From Elusimicrobiota bacterium (GTDB lineage: Bacteria; Elusimicrobiota; UBA8919), in the NCBI GenBank assembly GCA_040757695.1, contig JBFLWK010000001.1, positions 89,758 to 153,757 of the forward strand: DNA of 64,000 nt, written 5' to 3'. Position numbers and translations under genes: made by a program. Numbering within the stretch: the stretch's first letter is position 1; the number at the start of each line of letters is the position of its first letter. Shown here piece after piece: positions 6,805 through 52,518 of the stretch. The notes under the pieces were generated by a model, which searched no databases, was not told the DNA's origin, and saw only the letters and a list, made by a program, of their open reading frames with translations.

Positions 6805-6899
6805 AATAACTTATAACCCATCACTCACATATTGAGATTTTTTATTCATTGTAAGTAATCGGTTATTAGTTATCACATTAACTGCCGGGTGTTCGGGTA

Positions 6900-7514
6900 T
6901 TAAAGCCGAAGGTTGTGGAAACGGTAGTAAAGGCAAGGTGATAAGGTGATAAGGTGATAAGGTGATAAGTAAAAACAAGGAAGTAAAACAACAAAACCTA
7001 AAAGAAGCAAGAATAGTTTTTCAAAAAATTTCTTTAAAACCGTAAATATAACTGCTAAATCTGCAATCTGCAATCTGCAATCTGCAATCTTCAAATAGTG
7101 TTTAGCCACTGTGAATAACTTCTGGAGCAAATTCACAACCAGGATTTGTGAATGAACCGGTGTATTGAATGTCAGTGTGATGAGTGAACTCAAAAAAAGC
7201 GTCCGAAGTCCGAGGCCGGGGATTCGAGACCTGTCATTCTGAGCCGAAGGCGAAGAATCTTGTGTGTTAACACCAGGATTCTTCACTTCGCTGACGCTCC
7301 GTTCAGAATGACAACCTTCTACTCGCAACTCGCTACTCGCTACTTGCTGGTTTTGGGTATCTCTTTCATCCAGACCGCTGTCCCAATTCTTGATTGCCTG
7401 TTTTACTTCATTAGGGCAATTGGGATTGATAGTATTTGCAAAACAAAAAGCACTCGCTAACCCTATTAAGAAAGCGGCAGAAACTATAATAATAATAATT
7501 TCTCGTTTTGACAT
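6900..7514 (-). CDS. Hypothetical small secreted/membrane protein. Only the N-terminal ~60-100 aa look genuine; the 3' part of the ORF runs through SSRs and an inverted-repeat element.
   Basis: N-terminus MSKREIIIIIVSAAFLIGLASAFCFANTINPNCPNEV looks like a signal/TM segment followed by a Cys-containing mature region. The downstream part of the ORF spans the palindromic element at ~7232-7313 and (aatctgc)n / (ggtgataa)n repeats, so the true stop is doubtful. Confidence 0.25.
   Translation of the reverse strand: MSKREIIIIIVSAAFLIGLASAFCFANTINPNCPNEVKQAIKNWDSGLDERDTQNQQVASSELRVEGCHSERSVSEVKNPGVNTQDSSPSAQNDRSRIPGLGLRTLFLSSLITLTFNTPVHSQILVVNLLQKLFTVAKHYLKIADCRLQIADLAVIFTVLKKFFEKLFLLLLGFVVLLPCFYLSPYHLITLSPCLYYRFHNLRL
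7057..7093. repeat. 5× AATCTGC heptanucleotide repeat, with 3× GGTGATAA octamer repeat at 6948-6971, in the 5' region ~150-290 nt upstream of the GT2 gene at 5776-6804
   Basis: ctgcaatctgcaatctgcaatctgcaatct; ggtgataaggtgataaggtgataagg. Confidence 0.8.
7232..7313. repeat. Large imperfect inverted repeat: TGTCATTCTGAGCCGAAGGCGAAGAATC ... GATTCTTCACTTCGCTGACGCTCCGTTCAGAATGACA
   Basis: The two arms share the termini TGTCATTCTGA and GAAGAATC in opposite orientation. A related element is at 40419-40495. Confidence 0.6.
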
Positions 7515-10462: not shown

Positions 10463-11341
10463 TCATTCAATATATTTCTGTAAAGCAATTGCAAGTTTTT
10501 TAGAAAGCGTGTTTTCTTCGGTATTTAACAAAACTGCCAGATTTTTTTTAGCTTCTGCGATATTATTCTTTTTTAGATAAGTTAGTGCAACTAAAAAATG
10601 CGCATTCACCGCTGTAAAGTTAGAAATTGCGATATCTGGATTTTTTTTCATATTAATATATCCTTCTAAAATTCGGGAATCAAACGATGTAGTAAAAAAT
10701 GGTTCTGATTCAGCATATTTACCAGTTAAAACATTCAACTGTAAAATACTGTTTTTTATACTATCGGTTGGACATAGTGCCAGCGCCCTTTTGTATAAAT
10801 CAATAGCTTCGTTATCTCGCCCGGTATTTTTATAAATAACCGCAAGCCCGTTTAATGCTTCAATACTGCTGTTATCAAGTTGCAGTACTTTTTTATAGTA
10901 TTCTTCTGCCTTTTCGTATAGCAATTTTTTATAATAAACCGCACCCAGCCCGAGATAAATCCGTATATCTTTTGAGCCGTATTTTAATGCTTTATTATAT
11001 TCAAAAATCGCTTCATTATGCATATCAGCACCGCGATATGCCTCCCCTAATTTTAGAAGGACAACCGGGTTTTTTTTCTTAATTTTTTTGGCATCAGTAT
11101 AAAATGTAATTGCATAACTGTACTCGCCACGCATTAAATACTCATCACCTTTAGAGATATAGAATCTAATTTTTTCTTTTTTTGATTCTGCATATAAAAA
11201 GATGGAAAGATAGAAAGATAGAAAGATGGAAAGATAGAGAGATGGAAAGATAGAAAGATGGAAAGATAGAAAGGAAAATCTATTGCCCAACCACCTAGCC
11301 ATCTTACCATCTATCCATCTATTAGAATAGTATTTTTTCAT
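10463..11341 (-). CDS. TPR-repeat protein with a repeat-encoded hydrophobic N-terminus
   Basis: Several TPR-like segments (AITFYTDAKKI..., LYEKAEEYYKKVLQLD...). The N-terminal FSFLSFHLSIFPSLYLSIFLSFYLSIFLY is encoded by 8-nt tandem repeats (agatRgaa)n at ~11199-11275. Confidence 0.5.
   Translation of the reverse strand: MKKYYSNRWIDGKMARWLGNRFSFLSFHLSIFPSLYLSIFLSFYLSIFLYAESKKEKIRFYISKGDEYLMRGEYSYAITFYTDAKKIKKKNPVVLLKLGEAYRGADMHNEAIFEYNKALKYGSKDIRIYLGLGAVYYKKLLYEKAEEYYKKVLQLDNSSIEALNGLAVIYKNTGRDNEAIDLYKRALALCPTDSIKNSILQLNVLTGKYAESEPFFTTSFDSRILEGYINMKKNPDIAISNFTAVNAHFLVALTYLKKNNIAEAKKNLAVLLNTEENTLSKKLAIALQKYIE
11199..11275. repeat. Tandem octanucleotide repeats (AGATAGAA/AGATGGAA, ~9 units) inside the 5' coding end of the TPR gene
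   Basis: Read directly from the sequence. The unit length is not a multiple of 3 and gives an 8-aa periodic hydrophobic peptide. Confidence 0.8.
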
Positions 11342-12294
11342 TTTAGAAATACTATTTTATCAATAAACTTTTCAAGTATTTTATCTTTGATAGCATTCGC
11401 CTTACTTCTTGTGGCAACAAGCCCTGCCTCTATACATTCTGCTGACCTGTCAAGTTCTATCATACTCACATTTTTTATATTCGGTATTATTACAAAATCG
11501 GCATTTTTTATCTGATTAGATACCAGGAATCCAGCTTGAATATTTATCGCCTGAATGAGTGTTTTCATAACATTATCTATATTAAATAATGAATAATCTA
11601 CCTGTGGCCAGACAGCAATTACAAAATCGGCAGCCATTACTTTTGCGATATCAATCGGTAGATTATCAACCAACCCGCCGTCTACAAGCAGCCGATGTCG
11701 GTATTCAACCGGCTTAAAGAGACCCGGGATTATTGCAGAAGCACGCATTGCAAATGCTGCCTCGCCTTCCTTAAAAACGATTCGTTCACCAGTTTTTATA
11801 TCACAGGCGATACAGGCAAACGAAATTTTTAACTCGTCAAACCTTTTTTGCCTGATATGTTTTTCCAGATATTTTTCAAGTTTTTCTGTGCTTAACAGCG
11901 ATTCCGCAGTAATAAGTGTTAGCAGTTTAGTTGCTGAAAGATTTGATATTTTATTCCAGCCAATATCAGTCCCTATCCGTTCTATATCAGTTATCGCCAT
12001 ACCTGTCGCATAGAGCCCGCCAACAAGCGCACCGGCACTGGTACCAACAATAATATCAGTCGGTATATTATTTTCTTGAAGCACCTTTAAGACGCCGATA
12101 TGACTCAGACCTCGTGCGCCGCCACCACCTAATACTACCGCGATTTTAGGCCGCTTAGAGTTCAATGCTAAAAAATCTTTCCATAATAAATCTCTTAATA
12201 AATTATCAGATTGAGCATAAAGGCAGGTAAAAGGTAAAAGGTAAAAGGTAAAAAGTAAAAGGTAAAATCTCAAACTGCGAAGAACAGGATACAT
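11338..12294 (-). CDS. Patatin-like phospholipase
   Basis: GGGARG oxyanion motif, GTSAGA (GxSxG nucleophile elbow), DGGLVDN (catalytic Asp). The signal peptide RFYLLLFTFYLLPFTCLYAQ is encoded by heptamer repeats. Confidence 0.8.
   Translation of the reverse strand: MYPVLRSLRFYLLLFTFYLLPFTCLYAQSDNLLRDLLWKDFLALNSKRPKIAVVLGGGGARGLSHIGVLKVLQENNIPTDIIVGTSAGALVGGLYATGMAITDIERIGTDIGWNKISNLSATKLLTLITAESLLSTEKLEKYLEKHIRQKRFDELKISFACIACDIKTGERIVFKEGEAAFAMRASAIIPGLFKPVEYRHRLLVDGGLVDNLPIDIAKVMAADFVIAVWPQVDYSLFNIDNVMKTLIQAINIQAGFLVSNQIKNADFVIIPNIKNVSMIELDRSAECIEAGLVATRSKANAIKDKILEKFIDKIVFLK
12226..12268. repeat. 6× GGTAAAA heptanucleotide tandem repeat (coding strand TTTTACC) encoding FYLLPFT in the signal peptide of the patatin gene
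   Basis: ggtaaaaggtaaaaggtaaaaggtaaaaagtaaaaggtaaaa. The 7-nt unit is in frame only in multiples of three units. Confidence 0.85.
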
Positions 12295-12297
12295 TTT

Positions 12298-13593
12298 TTA
12301 TTCAATAATTTTGCCGATACTGGTTTCTAAATTGATTTTTGCGATTATAACATCTTTCAATGCATCAATATATTCAAGTTGGATATTCATCGCTGTCTCT
12401 AACATTTCAATAAACTCAAGATATGTAAGTTCTTTTAATACCTCATCTGTTACAGTTGTAGCAAGTTGTTCTTTTTCGTTAGTTTTTTGTTCAAACTTTT
12501 TAACTGCAAACTCGTAATCAACAAAACATTTTCTTACCTCGGCCTGGATTGAGTCGGTAATACTTGCTCGGTTAATCTGTGTTTTTCTATATTGGTACTT
12601 TTTTTGTTTTATTCGGGCAAACTGACCAAAACCATCAAATATCGGTAGTGTAAAATTTATAGTTGCATTCCACGCTCTTTTTTCAAATGGCAACTGTCTA
12701 TCTTCAAGTTGATAGTTGCCACCGAGTGTAATTATAGGATACCTGCCGGATAATGATAGGTTTACTGAAAGCGCATCCATCTGTTCCTGAAGTTGCGTTT
12801 TTTTAAGTTCAGGCCGATATTCAAGCGCCCAGGCAATGCATTTATTGAGGTCTACCACAGCCTTTTTGTGCTCTAACTCGCCTTTGATTGTGAATATCGT
12901 ATTTAACTCTATCCCGATAGAATCAAGAAAATCAATTTCTGCCAGTTCCAGTTCTTTCTGGTTTTTGGTTTCTGCTGATTTTATTTTTTCAATTTTTTTT
13001 TCAGATATAAATCTGTCTTTAGGGTTTAAAGACTCATTTTTTCTATTTGATATTTTTTCAATAGTTGCTTTATAAATCTCAACTTTTTTCTGGATTGATA
13101 GAAGTGTATAGAAATTTTTTTTAGCCGATGAGCCTGTTTTGTTTTTGATTACCTCGTAATCACTTTCAGCCGATTTCAATTCTGTTTCTGCAAACTTCTT
13201 TGTAGCAGAAATTTTGGCACCACTCCATAATATCTGATAGAGCGAAATTTTGGCTGTATAATAATCTTCAATGTTATCAACCAGTGGCTCAATTTTTTGT
13301 GGCAGGATAGTGTTGCCCAAAATAGGCGAAATCAACAGCGGGCTTTCGGCTTTGAATTTGGAATAGTTGGCGTTGAACTCCAATTGCGGATACATTATTG
13401 ACCGCGCTTCTTTCAGCCGTTGTCTGGCAATCTCTATATCCTGTCGGGCGGATAGAAGTTGCTGGTTGTTTGAAATCGCAAGATTAACACTATCGTCAAC
13501 TGTTAAAACTCTTTCTACAAGTTGCTGGGAATAGAGACAGGTAAAAGGTAAAAGGTAAAAGGTAAAAGGTAAAAGGTAAAAAAATTTTTTCAT
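12298..13593 (-). CDS. TolC-like outer membrane efflux protein (OEP family)
   Basis: Signal peptide, then a TolC-type N-terminus LTVDDSVNLAISNNQQLLSARQDIEIARQRLKEARSIMYPQLEFNANYSK; two-repeat coiled-coil architecture; 431 aa. Confidence 0.65.
   Translation of the reverse strand: MKKFFYLLPFTFYLLPFTCLYSQQLVERVLTVDDSVNLAISNNQQLLSARQDIEIARQRLKEARSIMYPQLEFNANYSKFKAESPLLISPILGNTILPQKIEPLVDNIEDYYTAKISLYQILWSGAKISATKKFAETELKSAESDYEVIKNKTGSSAKKNFYTLLSIQKKVEIYKATIEKISNRKNESLNPKDRFISEKKIEKIKSAETKNQKELELAEIDFLDSIGIELNTIFTIKGELEHKKAVVDLNKCIAWALEYRPELKKTQLQEQMDALSVNLSLSGRYPIITLGGNYQLEDRQLPFEKRAWNATINFTLPIFDGFGQFARIKQKKYQYRKTQINRASITDSIQAEVRKCFVDYEFAVKKFEQKTNEKEQLATTVTDEVLKELTYLEFIEMLETAMNIQLEYIDALKDVIIAKINLETSIGKIIE
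13540..13581. repeat. 6× GGTAAAA heptanucleotide repeat encoding FYLLPFTFYLLPFT in the TolC-like signal peptide
   Basis: Near-identical ~50-nt cassette (acag + 6 units + aaaaattttttCAT) to those at 12226 and 20440. Confidence 0.85.
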
Positions 13594-14939
13594 AATCTTT
13601 TAAGTTGCTGTTTTACAGATGATAGCGATGTGCCGCCGTAGGATTTTCTTTTTTCAACAGATTTCCTGAAGTTTAACATATCAAAAACTGACCTGTCAAA
13701 TTTTTCAGAAAATTTTTTCCATTCTGTAATTGATAAGTCATCAAACTTTTTCTGGTTTTTTATACAATAATCCACAAGTTTAGCAACAATACTATGCGAT
13801 GTTCTAAACGGAAGCCCTTTGCAAACAAGATAATCAGCAATATCAGTCGCAAGAATAAAGCCATTCTTACAGGCAGAAAGCATTCTGTCAGGGTTAAGTT
13901 TCATTTCTGAAACCATTCCCGCACAAATATCAAGTATATTTTCTATTGTCTCAGCAGACGAAAAAAGCGGTTCCTTATCTTCCTGCATATCCCTGTTGTA
14001 AGATAACGGAAGCCCTTTCATAACGGTTAAAAACGAAATTAAATTACCGTAAATTCTGCCTGTTTTTGCTCTCACAAGTTCTGCAAAATCCGGGTTTTGT
14101 TTCTGCGGCATCACAGATGAACCTGTTGTAAATTTTGCTGAAAGTTTTATAAATCCAAACTGCTGTGAAGACCATATAACAATTTCTTCAGCAAGCCGTG
14201 AGCAATGCATTGACACTACTGCGCAATCAAACAAAAACTCAATTATGAAATCTCTATCAGCAACGGCATCCACAGAGTTTTCTGAAATTTTTGAGAATCC
14301 TAACTGGCTGGCAACAAAATTTCTGTCAATATTGAACTCTGTTCCTGCAAACGCTGCAGAACCTAACGGACAGATATCAATCCTTTTATAGCAGTCATAA
14401 AACCGTTCTTTATCCCGTTTTAACATCCACACATATGCGAGAAACCAGTGACTGAATAATACCGCCTGTGCATTTTGCAGATGTGTAAATCCGGGCATAA
14501 TTATATTTAAATTTTTTTGAGCAATTTTTTTGAGCATACTGATTGCCTTATCTATTTTTTCAATAATTATCTTTATCTCGTCTTTCAAATAAAGCCGTTC
14601 ATCAAGCGCCACCTGGTCATTTCTGCTTCTTGCAGTATGCATTTTGCCAGCAACATTACCGATTCTTTTTTTGAGTTCTACCTCTATTGAAGTATGAATA
14701 TCTTCATCAGTAAATCTTAATTTACCAGCATTGAAATCTTTCAAGATTGAGTTAAGCCCGTTGATAATTTTTGTGGCTTCTTTTTGTGTAACAATTTTGC
14801 ATTTAGCAAGCATTTTTACATGCGCAATGCTCCCTAAAATATCATACTTCGCAAGTTTTACATCGTAAGAAATTGATGAGACAAACTTTTTTAGTTCCAT
14901 AATACCTGTTAACAGCAAATTCCAAATTCTAAATTCCAA
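13590..14939 (-). CDS. argH: Argininosuccinate lyase
   Basis: Fumarate-lyase signature GSSVMPQKQNPD; SRNDQV; 449 aa; adjacent to argG. Confidence 0.85.
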   Translation of the reverse strand: MEFRIWNLLLTGIMELKKFVSSISYDVKLAKYDILGSIAHVKMLAKCKIVTQKEATKIINGLNSILKDFNAGKLRFTDEDIHTSIEVELKKRIGNVAGKMHTARSRNDQVALDERLYLKDEIKIIIEKIDKAISMLKKIAQKNLNIIMPGFTHLQNAQAVLFSHWFLAYVWMLKRDKERFYDCYKRIDICPLGSAAFAGTEFNIDRNFVASQLGFSKISENSVDAVADRDFIIEFLFDCAVVSMHCSRLAEEIVIWSSQQFGFIKLSAKFTTGSSVMPQKQNPDFAELVRAKTGRIYGNLISFLTVMKGLPLSYNRDMQEDKEPLFSSAETIENILDICAGMVSEMKLNPDRMLSACKNGFILATDIADYLVCKGLPFRTSHSIVAKLVDYCIKNQKKFDDLSITEWKKFSEKFDRSVFDMLNFRKSVEKRKSYGGTSLSSVKQQLKRL

Positions 14940-17122: not shown

Positions 17123-18352
17123 CTACCGATTACAATTGAGTAATTCAGGTTCAATAATTTTTTTTAGTACTTTCTGGGCTTTAAGGAGTGCTTCGGCGAG
17201 TGGTGAACGGATAACTGCCTGAACAGATGCACCAGCACGCTGACAGGATTTTTCGGTAAATTGAGTAACAATTTTGTTATGAATAATTTTTAGCGGTATT
17301 CTTTCCTTGATTCTCGGTAGATAAACAATCCTATCCGGATTCAGCTTGTTTTTTCGTGGAATACCTGTAATCCGCTGAGCATAATAACTGATATCCGGAT
17401 GGTTTTTGCCGATAATTTTTTCAGCATACTCAACCGCTTGGGCATTTTCAATATACTCCAACTCTGATAGATACGCTGCATCACCGCATTTTATCTCATC
17501 GTTGGCTGATTCAATATTTTTGTAATGGACCGGTTCTATATCTGACAATTGAAACTCGCATTTATCAACAATCTCCTGGCTATTATCTAAAAATTGTTGT
17601 GGCATCCCGGCATCCAGCATTTCTTTTTCTGATTTCAACCAGTAATGATGCGAATCAATTTTGAACGATGAAATTTTATCAAATCTGGTTTTTATAACTA
17701 AATCGTGTGAAAGCCAATCATCAATCTCTAAATAATGCACATCATTTGTAGCAACGGGCTTGACATCGTATTTTTTAGCAAGTTCTAAAAGCGCTTTGTT
17801 TGATATTTCCTCGTCGGTAATCCCGTGTTTCCCAATCTCAACATAAAAATTTGTTTGAAATATATTTTTGTATCTTAAAAAAATTTTTTCGGCTTCCGGA
17901 AAACCACTCTTTATGTAGACCTGTGATATCTGGTTAAAAAAACAACTTGTTGTCGCAATCAAGCCATCAGAATATTTTTCCAGCAGTTGCCAGTCAACAA
18001 GCCCGCGTTTCTCATAATAGTTATTCTCAAGCCAGCTATCTGAAACAAGTGATACAAGATTCTTATAACCGATAGGATTTTTAGCGAGTAATAGCAGGTG
18101 GTATCTGCTTTTATCCTTTTTGTAAATTGATTTTTTAGCATCATCAACAAAATATACTTCAACTCCAAAAATCGGTTTTATGCCATATTTTTTACAAATA
18201 TCCGAAAACTCATACATAAACGGCATCTCGCCATGCTCGGTTATTGCAATTGCGTTCTGTCCAAGTGTTTTTGCTTTTTTTATACCTTCTTCAAGTTGAA
18301 GTGCACTATCAGAAAACGAGCCAATAAAATGGTTATGCAGATGTGAAAACAT
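17123..18352 (-). CDS. PHP (polymerase/histidinol-phosphatase) domain metal-dependent phosphoesterase
   Basis: N-terminal HxH motif MFSHLHNHFIGSFSD...AIAITEHGEM; 409 aa. Confidence 0.65.
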   Translation of the reverse strand: MFSHLHNHFIGSFSDSALQLEEGIKKAKTLGQNAIAITEHGEMPFMYEFSDICKKYGIKPIFGVEVYFVDDAKKSIYKKDKSRYHLLLLAKNPIGYKNLVSLVSDSWLENNYYEKRGLVDWQLLEKYSDGLIATTSCFFNQISQVYIKSGFPEAEKIFLRYKNIFQTNFYVEIGKHGITDEEISNKALLELAKKYDVKPVATNDVHYLEIDDWLSHDLVIKTRFDKISSFKIDSHHYWLKSEKEMLDAGMPQQFLDNSQEIVDKCEFQLSDIEPVHYKNIESANDEIKCGDAAYLSELEYIENAQAVEYAEKIIGKNHPDISYYAQRITGIPRKNKLNPDRIVYLPRIKERIPLKIIHNKIVTQFTEKSCQRAGASVQAVIRSPLAEALLKAQKVLKKIIEPELLNCNR

Positions 18353-20493
18353 TATTTCTCAGGCAGATTAAATAAATCAATTTTTAGGTTCTGGTTAAAA
18401 TACAACTTTTTAAGCAACAAGTTAGTTTTTACATTAAGCGTGGGATTACTAAAATCAAGCCGATGCGGAAAAATTATTCTGCCGGCTGGTTTATAGTCGG
18501 CAAATTGTATCACAGAACCGTTGTCAAACTCCAGTTCGGTAATTGTATGCGATTTCTTGTCAATTTTTAAGTTGACAGTACTATTTTTAAAACTATAAAG
18601 ATTTTTTTCTTCATTCACAAAATTCAGTTCATCAAAACATTCGGTATCAAAAATCTTGAAAATATCTCTAACCCAGCAAAAGTCGCTAGTTAAGTCATAC
18701 ATTGTTTGAGATGGTGTAATATACACGATTGTCCCCTGTCGTAATAGAATAAGCCCTTGCGGGACTGAAAACAGCCCTAAAATTTCTACTCTGAGTTGTT
18801 TAGGTTTCTTGAAGAAAAACGGGCCATTGATACTGTAGGATTTGTTTTTATAGTTAGTTGTGGCTTTTACAAAGCCGGCAATATCTTGCAGGTTTTTGAA
18901 ACATTTTAACGCACGATTTTTTACCATTTCCGACGACCATTCCAGATTTTTTTTATATTTTCTTATTTTGTTTTCTATCAGTTTATTTCTTTCTAACTCT
19001 AATAACAATGCGGTTTCCCAGTTGTCAACCGCATTCTGAACATCGCCAACAGATAAGTAGCAATCGCCGAGATGGTCAAAAATTATAGGGTCATCCAATT
19101 TCTCAGATGCTTTTTTTAACAATTTTAATGCCTCGTCATATTCTGCCCGACGATAATACACCCAGCCAAGCGAATCAATATATGCGGGATTTTCAGGTTC
19201 TAACTCTAACGCTTGTTTAATAAACTGTTCTGCTTCTACAAGTTTTACATTCTTATCCGCCCAGGTATAGCCAAGATAATTATACGCCTGCGAAGTGGTT
19301 GTATCTATTTCTATAACCTTAAAAAACGATTGCTCTGCCAAAGCCCATTTTTTCAGTTTATCATAAACCACACCGAGTTCAAAATGATATTTAGCATTTT
19401 GTGGCTCCATTTTGAGTGCTTTGTTAAGATATTTTTCTGCTTTCTTGTAGTTATTCAGAACCTCGTAATTCATCGCCAGAAAAAAATATACATCCGGATT
19501 TTCAGAACCTAACCTGATTGCTTGTTCAAACGATTTTACTGCCTGTTTGGTATTTTCTAAAATTGTAAAAATATAGCCCTTCTGTATGTATGGTTCAGGC
19601 AATTTTTTGTTTAGATGAATTGAATGGTCAAAATATTTTAGTGCCTCATCATATTTTTTTTCATCAAGCGCAATCAAGCCAAGATAGTAATCAACCCAGT
19701 GATTTGTTGGAATAGTTTCTTTTATTTTTAACAGATATTTTTTAGCAGTTAATAAATCCTTATTAAGAATTGAAAGCCCGGCAATTTTTAGCATAGGTTC
19801 GGTATCTTCAGGAAAGATATTAAGTAATTTCTCGTATAATTCAATTGCTTTTTTGTAGTCCTTTTTTTCTTCGTAAATCCCAGCAAGCGCAACCAATGGA
19901 ACAATAGAATTGGAGTCCATCTCATATGCTTTTTTAAGATACGATTCGGCTTCAACGGGCTTATTAAGTTTGTGATACAGAATTCCGATACTTACATAGA
20001 TTTCTGGTGATTCCGGCTGTAACTGAAGATATTTTTCAAAATATGTAATTGCTTTTTCGTAATTTTTAATTTCAGCATATAGAACAGCCAGGTTATAAAG
20101 TGCTTTTTCATTTGCTGGTTCTGTTGACAAAATTTTTTCATATGCAGAGATAGCATCTTCAGGTTTTTTTTGATAAACCGATATTTCGGCAATAAGTTCA
20201 GTTGTTAATTTATCTTCAGGCTGCTGTCTGGCTATTTCAGAAATCAGTTCAGATGCGGAGTTTATATCGCCTGTTAGAAAATAGAGGCTCAGCAGTTGTT
20301 TTTTGAGATATATTGAAGCAGAATCATACACTGCAGATTTTTTATACTCGTCTATCGCTTTTTTAGAATCACCCATCAGTTCTGCGATATTGCCTAAAAT
20401 ATAATGATAGTATGCATCGGATTGGGCAGAATGAAGACAGGTAAAAGGTAAAAGGTAAAAGGTAAAAGGTAAAAGGTAAAAATACTTTTTCAT
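18352..20493 (-). CDS. TPR-repeat secreted protein with a C-terminal LolA-like/lipoprotein-sorting-like domain
   Basis: At least ten TPR units (AISAYEKILSTEP..., AITYFEKYLQLQP..., etc.). Signal peptide MKKYFYLLPFTFYLLPFTCLHSAQ encoded by heptamer repeats. C-terminal domain assignment is low-confidence. Confidence 0.6.
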   Translation of the reverse strand: MKKYFYLLPFTFYLLPFTCLHSAQSDAYYHYILGNIAELMGDSKKAIDEYKKSAVYDSASIYLKKQLLSLYFLTGDINSASELISEIARQQPEDKLTTELIAEISVYQKKPEDAISAYEKILSTEPANEKALYNLAVLYAEIKNYEKAITYFEKYLQLQPESPEIYVSIGILYHKLNKPVEAESYLKKAYEMDSNSIVPLVALAGIYEEKKDYKKAIELYEKLLNIFPEDTEPMLKIAGLSILNKDLLTAKKYLLKIKETIPTNHWVDYYLGLIALDEKKYDEALKYFDHSIHLNKKLPEPYIQKGYIFTILENTKQAVKSFEQAIRLGSENPDVYFFLAMNYEVLNNYKKAEKYLNKALKMEPQNAKYHFELGVVYDKLKKWALAEQSFFKVIEIDTTTSQAYNYLGYTWADKNVKLVEAEQFIKQALELEPENPAYIDSLGWVYYRRAEYDEALKLLKKASEKLDDPIIFDHLGDCYLSVGDVQNAVDNWETALLLELERNKLIENKIRKYKKNLEWSSEMVKNRALKCFKNLQDIAGFVKATTNYKNKSYSINGPFFFKKPKQLRVEILGLFSVPQGLILLRQGTIVYITPSQTMYDLTSDFCWVRDIFKIFDTECFDELNFVNEEKNLYSFKNSTVNLKIDKKSHTITELEFDNGSVIQFADYKPAGRIIFPHRLDFSNPTLNVKTNLLLKKLYFNQNLKIDLFNLPEK
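20440..20481. repeat. 6× GGTAAAA heptanucleotide repeat in the signal-peptide codons of the TPR gene
   Basis: aggtaaaaggtaaaaggtaaaaggtaaaaggtaaaaa; same cassette as at 12226 and 13540. Confidence 0.85.
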
Positions 20494-21005
20494 ATGATTT
20501 TTGCCATAATTACTGCATCGTCGGTATTTGAATAGTATTTTTTACGAATACATATTTTTTTAAACCCGAAGTTTTTATAGAGTGTTATCGCAGGTAGATT
20601 GGTATCCCGGACCTCAAGATATATCTTCCCATTTTTTTTTATATTAAATGATTTTACAAAATCTATTACATATTTCAACATCGTTTTCCCAAAACCCTGG
20701 CGCCTATAATTTTTTGAGACGGTAAAATTTGTAAGATGTATTTCATCATCTATACACCAGAACACAACATAGCCGACAATTTTGGAAAAAAGTGTCACTA
20801 CAAAAAAATATGAGAATTCAAGTTGCAGTTCTTTGTAAAACATTTTTGGTGTCCACGGGTCAGGATATGCTTCGTTTTCAATTTTTACTATTTCAGGTAT
20901 ATCGCCGGGAGCAGCAAATCTGATATTTAAACTATCTGTTAATTTTTTTTTGTTCATCAACATATGCATGTCTGATATACAATGGCAAAACGGTTTCATA
21001 GCCAC
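20490..21005 (-). CDS. rimI: Ribosomal-protein-alanine N-acetyltransferase (GNAT). The true start is probably ~20960, since the track ORF overlaps tsaB.
   Basis: GNAT motif RRQGFGKTML; the conserved tsaB-rimI pairing. Confidence 0.7.
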   Translation of the reverse strand: MAMKPFCHCISDMHMLMNKKKLTDSLNIRFAAPGDIPEIVKIENEAYPDPWTPKMFYKELQLEFSYFFVVTLFSKIVGYVVFWCIDDEIHLTNFTVSKNYRRQGFGKTMLKYVIDFVKSFNIKKNGKIYLEVRDTNLPAITLYKNFGFKKICIRKKYYSNTDDAVIMAKII

Positions 21006-30561: not shown

Positions 30562-30631
30562 ACACCCTCCAAATTAATGGCAAATTTTAAATTCTAAATT
30601 CTAAATTTAATATAAGTTTGGTTACACTTCC

Positions 30632-43022: not shown

Positions 43023-43706
43023 TTACCTTACGATTTTGGTTTTTACATTACCAATAATAGAAACTGTTTCTTTGTCAACTGCAAGCACGATTTTGTCACC
43101 GGAGTACTCTGAAACACCATCGGCATCAGTTCTGACTATTTTTGGTGGACCGCCTAAAAGTAAAATTTCGTTTGTTTTATGGTCGTAAAATGCTTCCTTA
43201 CTGAATGCTTCTGTTTCCGATTGAGAAATTTTAACATTTTGGATTGCATGGAACCGGTCGCCGAACTCAAAAATCTCTAATTCTTCACATTTTAATTCAA
43301 TAACATCTGTTGTGTTCTGGCTTAATGTTCTTTTTACTTTTACATTCTTTTTCAAAATACCCTGTCCGTTATTTTTGTTATATTCTGCTTCATCACCCCA
43401 GGAATATGTAACGGATGTGCCACTGGAATAACAGATATAGATATTTCCGGTGCCTGAAATCACACTTGTTTTTTCGTTTGATTTCATTTTATCCGCAGAG
43501 ATTGTAAGGTTCTGCTGTGTAAATTTTACATTCCCAATAAATTCAAGAATCTCGCCTTTAGATAGTATCTTCATCTGGTCACCGGTGATTGTTGCCTGTT
43601 CACCAGCATAGAGGCAGTAAATAAGTGAATAAGTGAGTAAGTGAATAAGTGAAAGACACATAACCACATAACCACTTAACCACTCAACCACTTTATTTAT
43701 CTTCAT
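43023..43706 (-). CDS. LptA/OstA-like periplasmic LPS-transport protein
   Basis: Beta-jellyroll OstA-type repeats (ITGDQMKILSKGEILEFIGNVKFTQQNLTISADKM...); adjacent to lptC-like; signal peptide encoded by octamer repeats. Confidence 0.5.
   Translation of the reverse strand: MKINKVVEWLSGYVVMCLSLIHLLTYSLIYCLYAGEQATITGDQMKILSKGEILEFIGNVKFTQQNLTISADKMKSNEKTSVISGTGNIYICYSSGTSVTYSWGDEAEYNKNNGQGILKKNVKVKRTLSQNTTDVIELKCEELEIFEFGDRFHAIQNVKISQSETEAFSKEAFYDHKTNEILLLGGPPKIVRTDADGVSEYSGDKIVLAVDKETVSIIGNVKTKIVR
43621..43692. repeat. Two blocks of 8-nt tandem repeats (AAGTGAAT ×4; CATAACCA ×4) encoding the signal peptide of the LptA-like gene
   Basis: ataagtgaataagtgagtaagtgaataagtgaaagacacataaccacataaccacttaaccactcaaccac. 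Confidence 0.8.
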
Positions 43707-44873: not shown

Positions 44874-45932
44874 TTAACCTGCCTTTCTCGTGTTTTTTTC
44901 TATATCTAAAAACAATAAAATTGTTTCGGCAATTGCATTAAATGTAATAAAGACCATATACGAGCCCACAGATATACCAATCATTGCTAATAGCGAACTA
45001 AAAATACTTTTAGCAAGCAGTATAACAAAATAACCAAGCGCTGTAATCAGCCCGATAATCAAAACGAACCGAGCAAGGAATCGGAAAACATTTGAGATCC
45101 GGTAAAGCGCTCCATAGCGTCTCGGACTGGCGATTTGAGGTGCTTTCAGAATATTCCCGCAGTTGATACAATACCCGCTAACAGGCGTCTCTTTGTTACA
45201 GATTGCACATATCATTACTGTTTCTTCTTCAGCAATTTTTTCATCAACACCGGGCGTGAACCGTTCTGCCATTCCTAAAAACAAAAATATAATTCCTGCG
45301 GTAATCGCGCCAGAAAAAGCATCAGAAGTTACCAGCATACCTGTTGTAGTCGCCTCGTATCTTAACCGCAAAAATAATTCCCAACCAACCGCACCGCCAA
45401 TCGCACCACCTAACGCACCGCCGATAAATGCTGAAATCCGTTTTCGGCGCTGAGCGGTAAAAAGCCCTATAAACGCACCTGATATTAACCAGGCAACGCT
45501 ACTGGCAGTAGTGTATAACGAAAACTCTAAATTACTTGATTTTTCCGGTATAAACAACCACATAGGAACATCGTTTTTCAAAATAAATATCGCAATAATT
45601 CCGCCTATAAATCCACCAATAAGCCCGCCCAAAATTCCTGAAATTATTTTGCCAGTAGATTTCTCCAATACGCCAACAACAATCCCAATAAATATTGACG
45701 AGACGATAATTCTTAATATGACATTGACGGTTTCTGAAATTTCTAAATTGACAAAATTAAAAAGCCGCGCACAAAGAATCCAGCCAATTAAGCCCGCAAT
45801 TGCGCCTGCAAGTGTTCTTCTTAAAAGCCACGCTACTGTGGTAAGCACAAAATTCATCCCACAATTTCCACAGTATCTTGAACCTTCTCTTACTTCTGCA
45901 TCACAATTTGAACATCGCATTTTTCCTCCCAA
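44874..45932 (-). CDS. Zinc-ribbon-containing polytopic membrane protein
   Basis: CSNCDAEVREGSRYCGNCG and CAICNKETPVSGYCINCG zinc ribbons; Gly-zipper TM helices (GGLIGGFIGGIIA). Confidence 0.4.
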   Translation of the reverse strand: MGGKMRCSNCDAEVREGSRYCGNCGMNFVLTTVAWLLRRTLAGAIAGLIGWILCARLFNFVNLEISETVNVILRIIVSSIFIGIVVGVLEKSTGKIISGILGGLIGGFIGGIIAIFILKNDVPMWLFIPEKSSNLEFSLYTTASSVAWLISGAFIGLFTAQRRKRISAFIGGALGGAIGGAVGWELFLRLRYEATTTGMLVTSDAFSGAITAGIIFLFLGMAERFTPGVDEKIAEEETVMICAICNKETPVSGYCINCGNILKAPQIASPRRYGALYRISNVFRFLARFVLIIGLITALGYFVILLAKSIFSSLLAMIGISVGSYMVFITFNAIAETILLFLDIEKNTRKAG

Positions 45933-46006: not shown

Positions 46007-46267
46007 TCATTTTACATTTTTCATTGGTTCAGTCTTTTCATACATTGGATATTCTGATTCCCAAGTTGGTAAATTTCGGTCAAACTTATCAAGAAAAAAG
46101 CGGGCAACAAAAAACAAAACAATCACAATAGCATAGATTATTCCTAAAACTTTTAAGTGCCATTTCCAACTCGGTCGCCACGGGATATAAGTCAAATCCA
46201 CACCACAACCCTTACAGAATTTCGCAGAATCCTTGTTCTCCATCTGACAGTTATAACATTTAATCAT
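46007..46267 (-). CDS. Small zinc-ribbon + single-TM protein
   Basis: CYNCQMENKDSAKFCKGCG, then a hydrophobic helix. Confidence 0.35.
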   Translation of the reverse strand: MIKCYNCQMENKDSAKFCKGCGVDLTYIPWRPSWKWHLKVLGIIYAIVIVLFFVARFFLDKFDRNLPTWESEYPMYEKTEPMKNVK

Positions 46268-47236: not shown

Positions 47237-47980
47237 TCAAATTATTTCAATATATTTTTTTTCTACCCAGCCACGAACACCGAGTGATTTTACGCCTATC
47301 TCTAACCACTCGCCCCCCTCGCCTGATGTTCCTAACAGTATCACCTTTTTACCTTCCGGCACGGTAAAGTTAACCTTGAAATTAGTATCAGGTCCTGACC
47401 TAACCTCAGCGGTATTGATAACAACTGCTTCCTGCCGGGCTTGTTGACGGTATTTTATCAAATAGAGTGCTGAAAAGAAACCAAAAAATAAAACTGATAC
47501 AACAACCAGCCAAAACATTTTTTTAAACGGATAAACAAATTTTATAGAAATAACAACTACAAAACTAAACAACGAAATCGCAAATAATAATCTTAACCTG
47601 TTTATATTAAACCTTGAAATCAGTGATTGCTCGTAATCCGGGTCTTTTATCAGTTGTGCAATAAACTTTATGTTATAATTAACATCGTCATCCGCTGGCG
47701 AAATTTTTCTTGCTTTTTCATAATAGACCATTGCTAAACCAATTCTACCCAGTCGGAAATAGGTGTTGCCAAGATTATAAAAAAGGTTTGTAGACGGATA
47801 CGATTTTTCAATTATTAAAAACTGTTCAAGTGCTTTTTCATAGTTGCTCTTTTTGTAAAACTCGCAGCCGGTAGAAAAAATTTCAGTTTCTGAAACAGCA
47901 TAGAGGTGATTGCAGATTGCAGATTGCAGATTGCAGATTAAAAACAACAAAAAAATTTGTAATTTTTTCATATTTCCCAT
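47237..47980 (-). CDS. batE: BatE-like TPR + bacterial SH3 domain protein
   Basis: TPR units; C-terminal SH3b (VINTAEVRSGPDTNFKV...GEWLEI...RGWVEKKYIE); signal peptide encoded by (GATTGCA)n. Confidence 0.55.
   Translation of the reverse strand: MGNMKKLQIFLLFLICNLQSAICNHLYAVSETEIFSTGCEFYKKSNYEKALEQFLIIEKSYPSTNLFYNLGNTYFRLGRIGLAMVYYEKARKISPADDDVNYNIKFIAQLIKDPDYEQSLISRFNINRLRLLFAISLFSFVVVISIKFVYPFKKMFWLVVVSVLFFGFFSALYLIKYRQQARQEAVVINTAEVRSGPDTNFKVNFTVPEGKKVILLGTSGEGGEWLEIGVKSLGVRGWVEKKYIEII
47907..47940. repeat. 4.5× GATTGCA heptanucleotide repeat (coding strand CTGCAAT) encoding LQSAICNLQSAICN in the batE-like signal peptide
   Basis: tgattgcagattgcagattgcagattgcagatta. The same unit (aatctgc) is repeated at 7057-7093. 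Confidence 0.85.
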
Positions 47981-49812
47981 TCTTTTTCAATCTCGGAAAT
48001 AATACTTTTTATTTTTTTTATCTCGGTTGCCAAATTAACATTTTTGTCTACCGAGGGTGCAAATCTCATAAAATCAGCATTTTCAAGTAGTTCTCTAATT
48101 TTTTTTATAGCCGTTACAGCAAGATTTTTTTGTGCTAATACATTTTCAATCTCGCTAAAAGTAAAGCCTGACAGATTACTACTCGTTTTATCAGAAAGAT
48201 ATTCTACGACTGAATCAAATACAGTCCCGTAAAATTCTTTAACATCAATAGTATGTTTAATTTTATTTATGTTTTTTTCAAACTTTTTAAAAGCCTTTTT
48301 ACTTCTAATAAACTCGTAATTTTTAGAAACAAAAAATCTGTATCTGTTATATCCTAATCTACCAAAAAAAACCAACACCGAACAAACAAGCAATACATCT
48401 GCGATAATTTTTTCAGATTTCCAACTGATATTTTTGTCCAATTCAGTTTTTATAAACCTTATATCCTGACCGACAATATTGATACCGGAAGCAATCACAG
48501 GCAGGGTTGGGACTGCTGATATTTTAGACGGTAAAACTTTCAGATTAACTACTGGTGTTTTTAGTTTCTGGTATTCTTTTTTTTCAGGATTAAAATACGA
48601 AAAAACAACCTCCGGGATTATCAGATTACCAGCCCGGTCGGGAACGAGTACTGTCTTAAACACTTTAGAGCCGGTAACTTTATAGTTGGCTTTTGATATA
48701 TTAACTGACGAAATCGTATCATATTTTCTTACACCGATAATACTGGGAAATTGCGGCTCCGGAATTGATTTTATATTACCTTCACCTGAAATTGTAACAG
48801 TTAGCGTCACAGGATTGTTTGCTTCTATTTCTTTTTTGTCAACAGAAGCGCTGATATTATAAGCGCCTACAGCACCTGAAAAATCGGCTGGTTTATTTTC
48901 AGTCGGCAATGGTAGAACCTCAACAGATAGCGGTTTTGACTGAACAACGACAGATTTGCCACCACCAAAAAACCCTCTAAAAAAATCATCATCAAAAAAA
49001 CCGCTAAACGGGTCTCGTGTAAAATCCTGAACACTCGCTTTTAAGGACGCCGAGCCAAGCGCATATTTTCCGCTGGTAGTTGGGAACAATTTTGTTTTTA
49101 TCTCAATAACATTGTATCTTTTACCGTTAATAATTGTTTGATAATTTCGTTGTGGTGGTAAATCTTCAACAATAAAACCGGTGAAATTAGGCGGATTATA
49201 TTCCGGATTTGAAAACAGATTTCGTGAAGTAAAAAATCTGAATGTATAGGTTATTCCTTCATTAACAAAACATTTTCTTTTGTCCAATTCGGCTGTTACA
49301 AAAAGTCCTTGTGCTTTTTCATCATCAAGTTTGAATTGTTGAGTATCAACAGGTTTCTGCGATTGTCCGCTTAACACTTCAATATTTATTGGGTTAGTTG
49401 TATAATCTTTTCCACTGACGGTCAATTTTACAGGTCCGATTGCGAATTTCCCAGCACGATTCGGTGAGAGGATAAAATTATATGTTATAGATGCCGATAC
49501 TCTGCCATTAACAAACGAGATATTTTGTGAAGTGCCTGATGAATAAACATTAAAATCGGCTAACGGCGGAAGTTCAGGTTTAGGGATATTTGCAACATCG
49601 CCGGCGACGGTGACCTGCAGAGTAATTGATTCGCCGAAATTAACCGTGTTTCTGTCAACAGTTGCCTGGATATTTATATCCGCATAAAGGCAAGACAGAA
49701 GTAAGAAGCAAGAAGTAAGAAGTAAGAAGACAGAAGACAGATGAAAGATGACAGATGAAAGACTCTGACTTCTGACTTCTGACCTCTGATTTCTGACTTC
49801 TGATTTTTTCAT
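47968..49812 (-). CDS. batD: BatD-like oxygen-tolerance protein (signal peptide, large periplasmic region, C-terminal TM helix)
   Basis: Size and architecture, plus its position in the batA-E operon; N-terminus built from heptamer repeats. Confidence 0.6.
   Translation of the reverse strand: MKKSEVRNQRSEVRSQSLSSVIFHLSSVFLLLTSCFLLLSCLYADINIQATVDRNTVNFGESITLQVTVAGDVANIPKPELPPLADFNVYSSGTSQNISFVNGRVSASITYNFILSPNRAGKFAIGPVKLTVSGKDYTTNPINIEVLSGQSQKPVDTQQFKLDDEKAQGLFVTAELDKRKCFVNEGITYTFRFFTSRNLFSNPEYNPPNFTGFIVEDLPPQRNYQTIINGKRYNVIEIKTKLFPTTSGKYALGSASLKASVQDFTRDPFSGFFDDDFFRGFFGGGKSVVVQSKPLSVEVLPLPTENKPADFSGAVGAYNISASVDKKEIEANNPVTLTVTISGEGNIKSIPEPQFPSIIGVRKYDTISSVNISKANYKVTGSKVFKTVLVPDRAGNLIIPEVVFSYFNPEKKEYQKLKTPVVNLKVLPSKISAVPTLPVIASGINIVGQDIRFIKTELDKNISWKSEKIIADVLLVCSVLVFFGRLGYNRYRFFVSKNYEFIRSKKAFKKFEKNINKIKHTIDVKEFYGTVFDSVVEYLSDKTSSNLSGFTFSEIENVLAQKNLAVTAIKKIRELLENADFMRFAPSVDKNVNLATEIKKIKSIISEIEKEWEI
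49693..49810. repeat. ~118 nt of consecutive heptanucleotide repeat blocks (GAAGTAA/GAAGACA/GATGAAA/TCTGACT types) encoding the first ~40 residues of the BatD-like protein
   Basis: gaagtaagaagcaagaagtaagaagtaagaagacagaagacagatgaaagatgacagatgaaagactctgacttctgacttctgacctctgatttctgacttctg. The protein shows matching 7-aa periodicity (SEVRNQRSEVRSQS; LLLTSCFLLLSC). Confidence 0.8.
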
Positions 49813-52507: not shown

Positions 52508-52518
52508 AATTTTTAAAC

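What the first reader, a model, noticed from the sequence alone, without database searches (positions are those of the whole stretch)
12226..13581. Identical 6×GGTAAAA heptanucleotide repeats encode the signal peptides of adjacent patatin lipase and TolC-like genes
The hydrophobic core FYLLPFTFYLLPFT of both signal peptides is the translation of (TTTTACC)6 on the coding strand. Because 7 is not divisible by 3, only multiples of three units keep the frame, and gain or loss of one unit by slipped-strand mispairing would abolish expression. This is the classic contingency-locus design (Neisseria, Haemophilus, Helicobacter), but here the repeat is itself the signal-peptide coding sequence. The ~50-nt cassette (cag + repeats + aaaaattttttCAT) is nearly identical between the genes and with a third copy at 20440, which suggests cassette spread by recombination.
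Basis: seen in the sequence. Interest (0 to 1): 0.75.

Follow-up and report, generated by a model that had tools for sequence, protein, structure and literature searches.

The report
Signal peptides built from heptanucleotide repeats
Three exported-protein genes of an uncultured Elusimicrobiota bacterium have signal peptides encoded by the 7-base repeat TTTTACC, one case of a clade-wide habit of building export signals from short tandem repeats, and I found no evidence that it acts as an on/off switch.

Summary
(GGTAAAA)6 on the + strand, which is (TTTTACC)6 on the coding strand, sits at 12226-12267, 13540-13581 and 20440-20481. It encodes the hydrophobic core of the signal peptides of a patatin-like lipase, a TolC-family protein and a 713-aa TPR protein. 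The patatin tract has one substitution.

The frame arithmetic is right: a change of 1 or 2 units gives stops after 23-43 codons.

The context changes the reading:
- Seven of about 11 cleavable signal peptides in the window are encoded by 7- or 8-nt arrays, including those of LptA-like and BatD proteins.
- In 136 kb from this Elusimicrobiota clade, period 7 dominates tandem repeats, and 21 of 32 period-7/8 arrays lie in the first 50 codons of ORFs.
- TolC orthologues at 56-68% identity keep a 24-codon, 7-periodic signal peptide with species-specific units.
- Unrelated genes in one genome share cassettes.
- No out-of-frame allele was seen in about 24 array-encoded signal peptides. Nine assemblies of two related populations were invariant.

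Best reading: these are slippage-born Sec signal peptides, homogenised by gene conversion and held in frame by selection. They could slip, but nothing shows they are contingency loci. No population data exist for this species.

The parts
13540..13581 (-). (TTTTACC)6, perfect. Encodes FYLLPFTFYLLPFT, the hydrophobic core of the TolC-family signal peptide MKKFFYLLPFTFYLLPFTCLYSQQ.
   Evidence: The RNA is unstructured, dG 0.
12298..13593 (-). TolC/OEP-family outer-membrane protein gene, 431 aa. Its start overlaps the argH stop (ATGA).
   Evidence: Pfam OEP E 1e-37. TIGR01844 E 8e-26, below cut-off. 100% match to NCBI MAG protein MEW6555759.1, Elusimicrobiota.
12226..12267 (-). (TTTTACC)6 with one substitution (TTTTACT). 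Encodes FYLLLFTFYLLPFT in the patatin-like signal peptide MYPVLRSLRFYLLLFTFYLLPFTCLYAQ.
11338..12294 (-). Patatin-like phospholipase gene, 318 aa.
   Evidence: Pfam Patatin E 8e-37. RssA-like E 6e-38, below cut-off.
20440..20481 (-). (TTTTACC)6, perfect, in the signal peptide MKKYFYLLPFTFYLLPFTCLHSAQ of the 713-aa TPR protein.
18352..20493 (-). TPR-repeat protein gene, 713 aa.
   Evidence: Pfam TPR families. Orthologues in Elusimicrobia at 50-65% identity.
13529..13601 (-). 73-nt signal-peptide cassette: ATGAAAAA..TTTT + array + ACCTGTCT.. It is 90% identical to 20429-20501 and 71% identical to 12215-12287.
   Evidence: the repeat finder family D2; alignment A4
11194..11321 (-). Two octanucleotide arrays in the signal peptide of the 292-aa TPR protein (10463..11341): (CTTTCYAT)x10 for the hydrophobic core and (AGATGGNT)x4 for the n-region. 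The arms are roughly reverse-complementary and form a hairpin.
   Evidence: fold dG -38.8, z -5.3
43616..43693 (-). Two octanucleotide arrays encoding the n- and h-regions of the LptA-like protein (43023..43706). They form a hairpin.
   Evidence: LptA/OstA hits and kdsC-lptC-lptA gene context. Fold dG -28.3, z -4.1.
47908..47939 (-). (TGCAATC)x4.6, perfect, in the signal peptide of the TPR+SH3 (BatE-like) protein 47237..47980 (ICNLQSAICN).
49692..49803 (-). Two heptanucleotide arrays encoding the n-region (SEVRNQRSEVRSQ) and h-region of BatD (47968..49812). They form a hairpin.
   Evidence: fold dG -41.8, z -4.9

Best explanation
Each (TTTTACC)6 tract is translated. Because 7 and 3 share no factor, every reading frame of the tract gives the same heptapeptide FYLLPFT. 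Two turns of it form the 14-residue hydrophobic core of a Sec-type, signal-peptidase-I signal peptide: n-region MKK, c-region C-L-Y-[SA], then Q. This peptide exports a TolC-family protein, a patatin-like lipase and a TPR protein.

The tracts are one instance of a habit of this Elusimicrobiota sub-clade. The coding segments of signal peptides are made of 7- or 8-nt simple-sequence arrays. I infer the following life cycle:
- Arrays arise by replication slippage. Inverted partner arrays arise by template switching.
- They are tolerated at this position because a hydrophobic core needs only hydrophobicity, and T-rich units give hydrophobic residues in all frames.
- They are copied and homogenised between signal-peptide regions of different genes by gene conversion. 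The conserved flanks ATGAAAAA... and ...TGYCTYTAT provide homology.
- They then decay by point substitution.
- Purifying selection holds the total length in frame, at 6 units or 24 codons in TolC.

Slips of 1 or 2 units would be null alleles. They probably arise but are removed rather than exploited.

Shown: position, translation, frame arithmetic, clade-wide pattern, cassette sharing, length conservation.
Inferred: slippage and conversion as the generating mechanisms, cleavage after LY[SA], and the absence of adaptive switching.
For: - The tracts lie in codons 5-24 of three ORFs from exported-protein families.
- Seven of about 11 cleavable signal peptides in the window are array-encoded, each with a different unit. 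They include the LptA-like protein in a kdsC-lptC-lptA cluster, and BatD.
- TRF on 136 kb of clade DNA gives period 7 x26, period 8 x6, and none of period 3 or 6. Of the 32 period-7/8 arrays, 21 lie in the first 50 codons of ORFs. That region is 13% of the sequence, so binomial P is 8e-12.
- Outgroup Elusimicrobia loci L139 and L141 have 0 and 1 such array in 36 kb.
- The TolC signal peptide is 24 codons long in the window, L002, L139, L140 and L011, and in P0004, P0016, P0017, P0029 and P0034. Lag-7 autocorrelation is 0.68-0.90 against 0.32 in the outgroup. Units differ by species (TTACTCG, TAATTTG, ATTTTTA). L139 keeps a decayed TTTTACC-like array.
- TPR713 orthologues behave similarly.
- Cassettes are shared between non-homologous genes, with the interruption at the same position, in L010, L011 and L006 and in the window.
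- Arrays are identical in 5 assemblies of one population and 4 of another.
- The only indel in the TolC signal peptide between L006 and L010 (88.5% DNA identity) is an in-frame 42-nt inverted copy of the array.
- Heptanucleotide repeats are reported to be the commonest long-repeat class in many bacteria, attributed to polymerase slippage (Mrazek 2007, as cited in PMC4679880 and PMC4692102).
Against: - Two tracts are perfect (42/42) and the third is 41/42, although the orthologous arrays in relatives have diverged. This requires recent expansion or ongoing homogenisation, so the tracts are mutationally active. I cannot exclude that switching is used.
- Non-triplet units inside ORFs are what selection for switching would favour, and what selection against frameshifts should remove.
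- No signal-peptide predictor or experiment was available. The core has two prolines per 14 residues and a modest mean Kyte-Doolittle hydropathy of 1.37.
- There are no population data for this species.
- The invariant arrays seen in relatives are imperfect and therefore expected to be stable anyway.
Confidence: 0.6

Rival explanations
1. True contingency loci. Slipped-strand mispairing in the perfect (TTTTACC)6 tracts reversibly switches the TolC-like, patatin-like and TPR proteins on and off, and the population exploits this, as with Neisseria opa.
For: - A non-triplet unit inside the ORF. A change of 1 or 2 units truncates the product after 23-43 codons, and a change of 3 units restores the frame.
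- The tracts are perfect or near-perfect although orthologous arrays have diverged, which implies recent slippage or homogenisation.
- Assemblies of relatives break inside signal-peptide arrays: a contig end in L133 and an N-gap in L136.
- There is precedent for repeats in leader-peptide coding sequence (PMC3960869) and for heptanucleotide phase variation in H. influenzae (PMC2651432).
Against: - About 24 array-encoded signal peptides in 8 or more related genomes are all in frame. None is out of frame.
- Arrays are identical in 5 and 4 assemblies of two populations.
- Signal-peptide length is conserved across orthologues at 56-68% identity.
- The same architecture occurs on LptA-like and BatD proteins, where off states should be costly.
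- Six units is short compared with the cited phase-variable heptanucleotide tracts of 8-38 units.
- The genes are translationally coupled in an operon, so frameshifts would be polar.
Confidence: 0.2
2. The arrays are kept for a function at the nucleic-acid level, and the peptide is a by-product. Possible functions are an unstructured U-rich start of the coding region that favours translation initiation, binding of cold-shock or S1 proteins, or membrane targeting of the mRNA. In the paired inverted arrays, a hairpin could regulate translation or stabilise the mRNA.
For: - The (UUUUACC)6 region folds with dG 0.
- Paired arrays form long hairpins, with dG -28 to -42 and z -4 to -5.3.
- Related heptamer arrays (RGARTTT) sit 20-40 nt upstream of start codons of other genes. 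This resembles the TAACTGA repeats of Beggiatoaceae, for which binding of cold-shock or S1 proteins to heptamer repeats was proposed (PMC4679880).
- (GGTAAAA)n is mostly intergenic in other phyla.
Against: - Unstructured single arrays and strongly structured paired arrays would have opposite effects on initiation.
- Units differ widely between genes and species, so no common binding motif is evident.
- In coding regions the arrays concentrate at the 5' ends of exported-protein genes. Only 3 in-frame arrays fall inside cytoplasmic enzymes. This fits tolerance at the peptide level.
Confidence: 0.12
3. The conserved cysteine after the array marks these as lipoprotein signal peptides cleaved by signal peptidase II, with the array supplying the hydrophobic region and lipobox.
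For: A Cys follows the array in all three genes and in many clade signal peptides (FTC|LY., FNC|LYS). Many OEP/NodT-family proteins are lipoproteins (general knowledge).
Against: - Positions -3 to -1 are P-F-T or I-F-N, not L-[ASTVI]-[GAS].
- The Cys is absent in several orthologues, where LY[AS] is kept instead (P0007 DNLYSQQ, P0034 TILYAQQ, P0029 GFLYSQQ, window TPR292 IFLYAES).
- The same motif occurs on the LptA-like protein. E. coli LptA is a soluble periplasmic protein rather than a lipoprotein (general knowledge).
Confidence: 0.05
4. Assembly or sequencing artefact.
For: The window comes from a metagenome-assembled genome, and assemblies of relatives sometimes break at such arrays.
Against: - The tracts are 42 nt, shorter than a typical short read (my assumption about read length).
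- Each is flanked by unique, in-frame coding sequence.
- The same architecture recurs in independent assemblies from NCBI, JGI, ENA and Logan.
Confidence: 0.02

Closest known systems
Neisseria opa genes: CTCTT pentanucleotide coding repeats in the leader-peptide region
   Same: A non-triplet repeat lies inside the 5' coding region and is itself translated as the hydrophobic part of the signal peptide. Changes in unit number shift the frame of the mature protein (PMC3960869).
   Different: - opa tract length varies between and within strains, at about 1e-3 per generation. Many copies are out of frame at any time, and the products are variable surface adhesins.
- Here the tract has 6 units of 7 nt, and every copy seen in the clade is in frame.
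- Length is conserved across divergent species.
- The same design sits on housekeeping envelope proteins.
Haemophilus influenzae heptanucleotide and octanucleotide repeats (hmw promoters; AACAACC in a TonB-dependent receptor ORF)
   Same: Unit sizes of 7 and 8 nt, associated with outer-membrane or secreted proteins, and some lie inside ORFs (PMC2651432).
   Different: Those tracts have 8-38 units and vary between strains. They occur at a few loci in a host-adapted pathogen. Here most signal peptides of an environmental lineage carry short arrays, and these are stable in the populations sampled.
Long simple sequence repeats of 5-11 nt, heptanucleotide-dominated (Mrazek 2007): GGGAATC in Xanthomonas, STRR/GGGGAYT in Nostoc, TAACTGA in Beggiatoaceae, Cyanobacteria and Bacteroidetes
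   Same: - Period 7 dominates and there are many arrays per genome.
- Arrays differ in length and sequence between close relatives.
- Inverted array pairs occur, and some arrays lie just upstream of start codons.
- Polymerase slippage is the proposed origin (PMC4692102, PMC4679880).
   Different: - Those arrays are described as mainly intergenic. Here two thirds lie inside ORFs, at the signal-peptide position, and are translated.
- Many different units coexist in one genome rather than one dominant unit.
- I found no report of this in Elusimicrobiota.

Membership tests
Simple-sequence contingency locus (phase-variable gene) | A repeat with a unit that is not a multiple of 3, placed so that gain or loss of a unit shifts the reading frame or alters the promoter | tested here: met
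   A change of 1 or 2 units gives stops after 23-43 codons in all three genes. A change of 3 units stays in frame.
Simple-sequence contingency locus (phase-variable gene) | Repeat-number polymorphism between strains or within populations, including out-of-frame alleles | tested here: not met
   - For relatives: arrays are identical in L001-L005 and in L006-L009.
- The TolC signal peptide is fixed at 24 codons across species.
- None of about 24 array-encoded signal peptides is out of frame.
- For this species itself the test is not possible. The protein cluster has a single member, and the metagenome scan found no relative.
Simple-sequence contingency locus (phase-variable gene) | Tract long and perfect enough for a high slippage rate | tested here: inconclusive
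   The tracts are perfect or near-perfect but have only 6 units. The cited phase-variable heptanucleotide tracts have 8-38 units.
Simple-sequence contingency locus (phase-variable gene) | Restricted to genes whose variable expression is plausibly adaptive, such as surface antigens, LOS modification or restriction-modification | tested here: not met
   The same architecture is found on LptA-like, BatD, BatE-like and TPR proteins. It covers 7 of about 11 cleavable signal peptides in the window.
Sec-type signal peptide cleaved by signal peptidase I | N-terminal basic n-region followed by a hydrophobic h-region of about 7-15 residues | tested here: met
   MKK + FYLLPFTFYLLPFT, with mean Kyte-Doolittle hydropathy 1.37 (1.76 for patatin). 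This is by inspection only; no predictor was available.
Sec-type signal peptide cleaved by signal peptidase I | c-region with small residues at -1 and -3 before the mature protein | tested here: inconclusive
   L-Y-[SA] is conserved just before the conserved mature N-terminus (QQL.ER.LT) in orthologues. Position -1 is small, but -3 is Leu. The cleavage site has not been verified.
Sec-type signal peptide cleaved by signal peptidase I | The passenger belongs to an exported family | tested here: met
   It matches the OEP/TolC outer-membrane family. Orthologues all carry N-terminal signal-like segments.
Lipoprotein signal peptide (signal peptidase II) | Lipobox L-[ASTVI]-[GAS]-C with an invariant Cys | tested here: not met
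   The sequence is P-F-T-C. The Cys is not conserved in orthologues, where LY[AS] is kept.
Heptanucleotide-dominated long simple sequence repeats (Mrazek 2007 class) | Tandem arrays of 5-11-nt units, over-represented, with period 7 the most common | tested here: met
   In 136 kb there are 26 arrays of period 7, 6 of period 8, and none of period 3 or 6. For the GGTAAAA pattern, shuffles give 0 expected matches.
Heptanucleotide-dominated long simple sequence repeats (Mrazek 2007 class) | Mainly intergenic location, as described for Xanthomonas, Nostoc and Beggiatoaceae | tested here: not met
   Of the 32 period-7/8 arrays, 21 lie in the first 50 codons of ORFs.

The most novel reading that the evidence does not exclude
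In this Elusimicrobiota sub-clade the exported proteome may be fronted by a system of interchangeable repeat cassettes.
- Heptamer and octamer arrays would create, replace and spread signal peptides between genes.
- In paired form, the charged n-region and the hydrophobic h-region are encoded by complementary arrays that fold into long mRNA hairpins.
- This would be a new way of originating and regulating signal peptides. It could include stochastic frame switching, or hairpin or protein-mediated translational control, across much of the envelope proteome rather than at a few antigen genes.
Probability: 0.15. Interest if true: 0.85.

Novelty: new variant of a known kind. Interest (0 to 1): 0.6.

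Why it matters
- If the pattern holds genome-wide, it is a natural example of signal peptides being born and exchanged as short repeat cassettes. It would show how little sequence information a Sec signal needs.
- It would extend the poorly understood heptanucleotide repeat class from intergenic DNA into translated sequence.
- It is a caution for annotation and for phase-variation screens. A non-triplet repeat in a 5' coding region is not enough to call a contingency locus.
- The frame-independent translation of heptamer arrays could be useful for designing export tags. So could encoding the n-region and h-region from complementary strands.

Tried and rejected
- Population test in this species. 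The TolC protein cluster has one member. A metagenome scan for (TTTTACC)3+TGYCTYYAT found only two unrelated contigs. This was a dead end.
- Apparent orthologues without a signal peptide as possible off alleles. P0014 is a gene-calling difference: its DNA is identical to L002-L005. P0025 is cut by a contig end. L136 has an N-gap in the arrays, so its frame cannot be known.
- Protein search with a synthetic 40-aa FYLLPFT signal peptide. It returned only short spurious ORFs over intergenic arrays.
- Genome-collection scan for (GGTAAAA)3GG. It did not return the window's own genome. The base rate for an arbitrary heptamer is unknown, so I draw no conclusion about horizontal spread.
- Known RNA families. 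There were no Rfam matches in the window.
- Lipoprotein reading: rejected, because there is no lipobox and the Cys is not conserved.
- Literature. I found no paper on repeat-encoded signal peptides in Elusimicrobia.
Full report
**1. Observation**

The + strand carries (GGTAAAA)n at 12226-12267, 13540-13581 and 20440-20481. A three-unit probe with up to 1 mismatch matches only at these sites, against 0 expected in shuffles. TRF gives 6.1 copies at each site, with 94%, 100% and 100% matches.

Every kept ORF of at least 100 aa in the window is on the minus strand. On that strand the tracts read (TTTTACC)6 and occupy codons 5-24 of three ORFs:
- 11338..12294, MYPVLRSLRFYLLLFTFYLLPFTCLYAQ... (Patatin, E 8e-37).
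- 12298..13593, MKKFFYLLPFTFYLLPFTCLYSQQ... (OEP/TolC family, E 1e-37).
- 18352..20493, MKKYFYLLPFTFYLLPFTCLHSAQ... (TPR protein).

The patatin tract has one substitution, so "identical" is slightly overstated. The 73-nt cassette is 90% identical between TolC and TPR713 but only 71% identical for patatin, whose n-region differs.

Simulated gain or loss of 1 or 2 units gives stops after 23-43 codons. Gain or loss of 3 units stays in frame. Because 7 and 3 share no factor, all three frames of the tract encode the same heptapeptide. This follows directly from the sequence.

**2. Source and surroundings**

The TolC protein is 100% identical to an NCBI MAG protein annotated as Elusimicrobiota, on a 155-kb contig.

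The tracts are not isolated. Four more exported-protein genes in the window have N-terminal regions encoded by other 7- or 8-nt arrays:
- TPR292 (10463..11341).
- An LptA-like protein (43023..43706) in a kdsC-lptC-lptA cluster.
- A TPR+SH3 BatE-like protein (47237..47980).
- BatD (47968..49812).

That makes seven of about 11 cleavable signal peptides in the window. Most end in L-Y-[AS], often preceded by Cys.

**3. Clade-wide pattern**

TRF was run on 136 kb: the window plus five syntenic loci from related MAGs. It finds 26 arrays of period 7, 6 of period 8, a handful of periods 9-21, and none of period 3 or 6. Of the 32 period-7/8 arrays, 21 lie in the first 50 codons of ORFs of at least 100 aa. 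That region is 13% of the sequence, so P is 8e-12.

Two more distant Elusimicrobia loci, L139 and L141, have 0 and 1 heptamer array in 36 kb, and L141's signal peptides show no array structure. The habit therefore belongs to a sub-clade, and the window's organism is its most array-rich member.

**4. Comparative test of the phase-variation idea**

- **Different signal peptides on near-identical proteins.** TolC orthologues in the same 90% cluster can carry entirely different array-encoded signal peptides. Examples are MRQTFLIFNFTFLIFNCLYSQQ, MKRIYSEWRVASSLIVLLFTTSCFLLPTSYIHSQQ and MKKTLIISIFNFQFLIFNCLYSQQ.
- **Conserved length.** The basic length is nonetheless kept: 24 codons from ATG to the conserved QQ.
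  - At DNA level this holds in the window, L002, L139, L140 and L011. At protein level it holds in P0004, P0016, P0017, P0029 and P0034. These orthologues are 56-68% identical in the mature part.
  - Lag-7 autocorrelation is 0.68-0.90, against 0.32 in the outgroup.
  - L139 retains a decayed TTTTACC-like array.
  - TPR713 orthologues show the same picture, with optional n-region insertions.
- **Unit turnover.** Units are homogeneous within an array but differ between species (TTACTCG, TAATTTG, ATTTTTA). That is the signature of concerted evolution or cassette replacement under a length constraint.
- **No variation within populations.** Independent assemblies of two related populations, five and four assemblies, have identical signal-peptide DNA. 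These arrays are imperfect, so stability was expected.
- **The one indel is in frame.** Between L006 and L010 (88.5% identity over 8.8 kb), the only indel in the TolC signal peptide is an in-frame 42-nt inverted copy of the array.
- **No off alleles.** Apparent off candidates were artefacts of gene calling or contig ends. No out-of-frame array-encoded signal peptide was seen among about 24.
- **Limit of the test.** No second sequence of the window's species exists in the collections. Polymorphism at the three perfect tracts therefore remains untested.

**5. Cassette sharing**

In L010, L011 and L006 the TolC gene and the neighbouring TPR gene share about 45 nt: ATTTTTAATTTTnnATTTTTAATTTTTAATTGYCTYTATTCC. 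The interruption sits at the same position, which independent slippage would not produce.

In the window, TolC and TPR713 are identical from TTTTTACC through ACCTGTCT. The patatin gene keeps an n-region like that of its orthologues (MYLIGYRIK...) but carries the TTTTACC array.

Gene conversion using the arrays and the conserved flanks as homology is the simplest mechanism, but this is an inference.

**6. Mechanism**

The best reading is that these are working Sec signal peptides whose coding sequence is a simple-sequence array. Such arrays are generated genome-wide in this lineage. They are also found:
- in intergenic DNA (953-1040, 14916, 30582, 52514);
- in frame inside cytoplasmic enzymes (27528 in an AIR-synthase-related protein, 61524 in LpxK, 62260 in a GT2).

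They survive mainly where the sequence is least constrained. The signal-peptide hydrophobic core is such a place, and T-rich units give hydrophobic residues in every frame.

The perfect state of the window's tracts, set against diverged orthologous arrays, shows recent slippage or conversion. Unit changes must therefore occur. The conserved 6-unit length argues that they are selected against.

Heptanucleotide dominance and a slippage origin match what is reported for long simple sequence repeats in other bacteria (PMC4679880 and PMC4692102, citing Mrazek 2007).

**7. Comparison with known systems**

The nearest functional analogue is the CTCTT leader-peptide repeat of Neisseria opa (PMC3960869). 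H. influenzae has phase-variable heptanucleotide tracts of 8-38 units (PMC2651432).

The present case shares their geometry but fails two defining tests of a contingency locus: polymorphism in relatives, and restriction to genes whose variation is plausibly adaptive. It fits the heptanucleotide long-repeat class in period and abundance, but not in location.

I found no description of repeat-encoded signal peptides in Elusimicrobia. These searches cover open-access literature only.

**8. Other points**

- **Paired arrays.** In TPR292, LptA and BatD, a purine-rich array encodes the charged n-region and its near-complement encodes the h-region. They form hairpins with dG -28 to -42 kcal/mol and z -4 to -5.3. 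The (UUUUACC)6 region is unstructured.
- **Other phyla.** The unit GGTAAAA occurs as arrays in more than 120 genome stretches from many phyla, mostly intergenic but occasionally encoding signal peptides. The base rate for an arbitrary heptamer is unknown.
- **RNA families.** There are no Rfam matches in the window.

**9. Verdict**

This is a new variant of a known kind, heptanucleotide repeats recruited wholesale as signal-peptide coding sequence. It is of moderate to high interest. The decisive missing piece is read-level or multi-strain data for this species.

Noticed in passing
window 11196-11345, 43605-43712, 49685-49818 (minus strand): In three signal peptides a purine-rich array encodes the charged n-region (RWIDGKMARW, VVEWLSGYVV, SEVRNQRSEVRSQ). 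A near-complementary pyrimidine-rich array encodes the h-region. The mRNA folds into long bulged hairpins, with dG -38.8, -28.3 and -41.8 and z -5.3, -4.1 and -4.9. L006 gained such an inverted arm as a 42-nt in-frame insertion relative to L010.
   Followed up: partly
window 953-1040: Intergenic hairpin whose two arms are themselves tandem arrays, (CCGCAGAA)n and (TTCTGCGG)n, with dG -46.3 and z -5.4. A similar design occurs in the unrelated contig L137, where (GGTAAAA)n and (TTTTACC)n flank a GC-rich terminator-like stem.
   Followed up: partly
window 14916-14939, 30582-30607, 52514-52555; L012:7289-7345: Heptamer arrays with related units (GGAATTT, AGAATTT, GAGTTTA) lie 20-40 nt upstream of the start codons of argH, an OmpA-family gene and a VWA (BatA-like) gene. 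They recall the TAACTGA repeats upstream of start codons in Beggiatoaceae.
   Followed up: no
window 27528-27559, 61524-61565, 62260-62292: In-frame heptamer arrays of 4.6-4.9 units lie inside cytoplasmic enzymes: an AIR-synthase-related protein, LpxK and a family-2 glycosyltransferase. They give 7-residue periodic peptide stretches.
   Followed up: no
window 6805-7514: A stretch with no protein-family match that is crowded with repeats.
- Three arrays: AAGGTGAT x4.4; AATCTGC x5.3, the same unit as 47908 on the other strand; CTACTCG x4.3.
- A palindrome, TGTCATTCTGAGCCGA/TCCGTTCAGAATGACA, at 7232-7313.
- An orphan signal-peptide-like tail, ...LLPCFYLSPYHLITLSPCLYY, with no mature domain behind it.
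   Followed up: partly
window 27299-27348, 37247-37289, 58029-58061: Copies of the palindrome CCGAACATTTGTTCGG (GCGAACATTTGTTCGC at 58029), two of them tandemly duplicated. They look like a dispersed hairpin element or terminator.
   Followed up: no
window 45943-46036 (minus strand): An (ATGAAAA)n-like array forms the last codons and 3' flank of a small zinc-ribbon/TM ORF (46007..46267). It lies upstream of the next zinc-ribbon gene (44874..45932).
   Followed up: no
It is mostly intergenic. In several cases it encodes a signal-peptide core, for example L059 MKKPLFLLPFTFYLLPFALCLATFAQT (Pyrinomonadaceae), L108 (a lipoprotein-like N-terminus), L014, L031, L065 and L066. Algivirga pacifica alone gave 7 loci.
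   Followed up: partly
P0008, P0009, P0011; L133:1-60; L136:4515-4560: The signal-peptide region of TolC orthologues also accepts other insertions, seen as long N-terminal extensions with sequences typical of dispersed palindromic elements. Assemblies break there: a contig end in L133 and an N-gap in L136.
   Followed up: no
window, whole: All 58 kept ORFs of at least 100 aa are on the minus strand. Many starts overlap the preceding stop (ATGA), so frameshifts in early codons would probably be polar on downstream genes.
   Followed up: no
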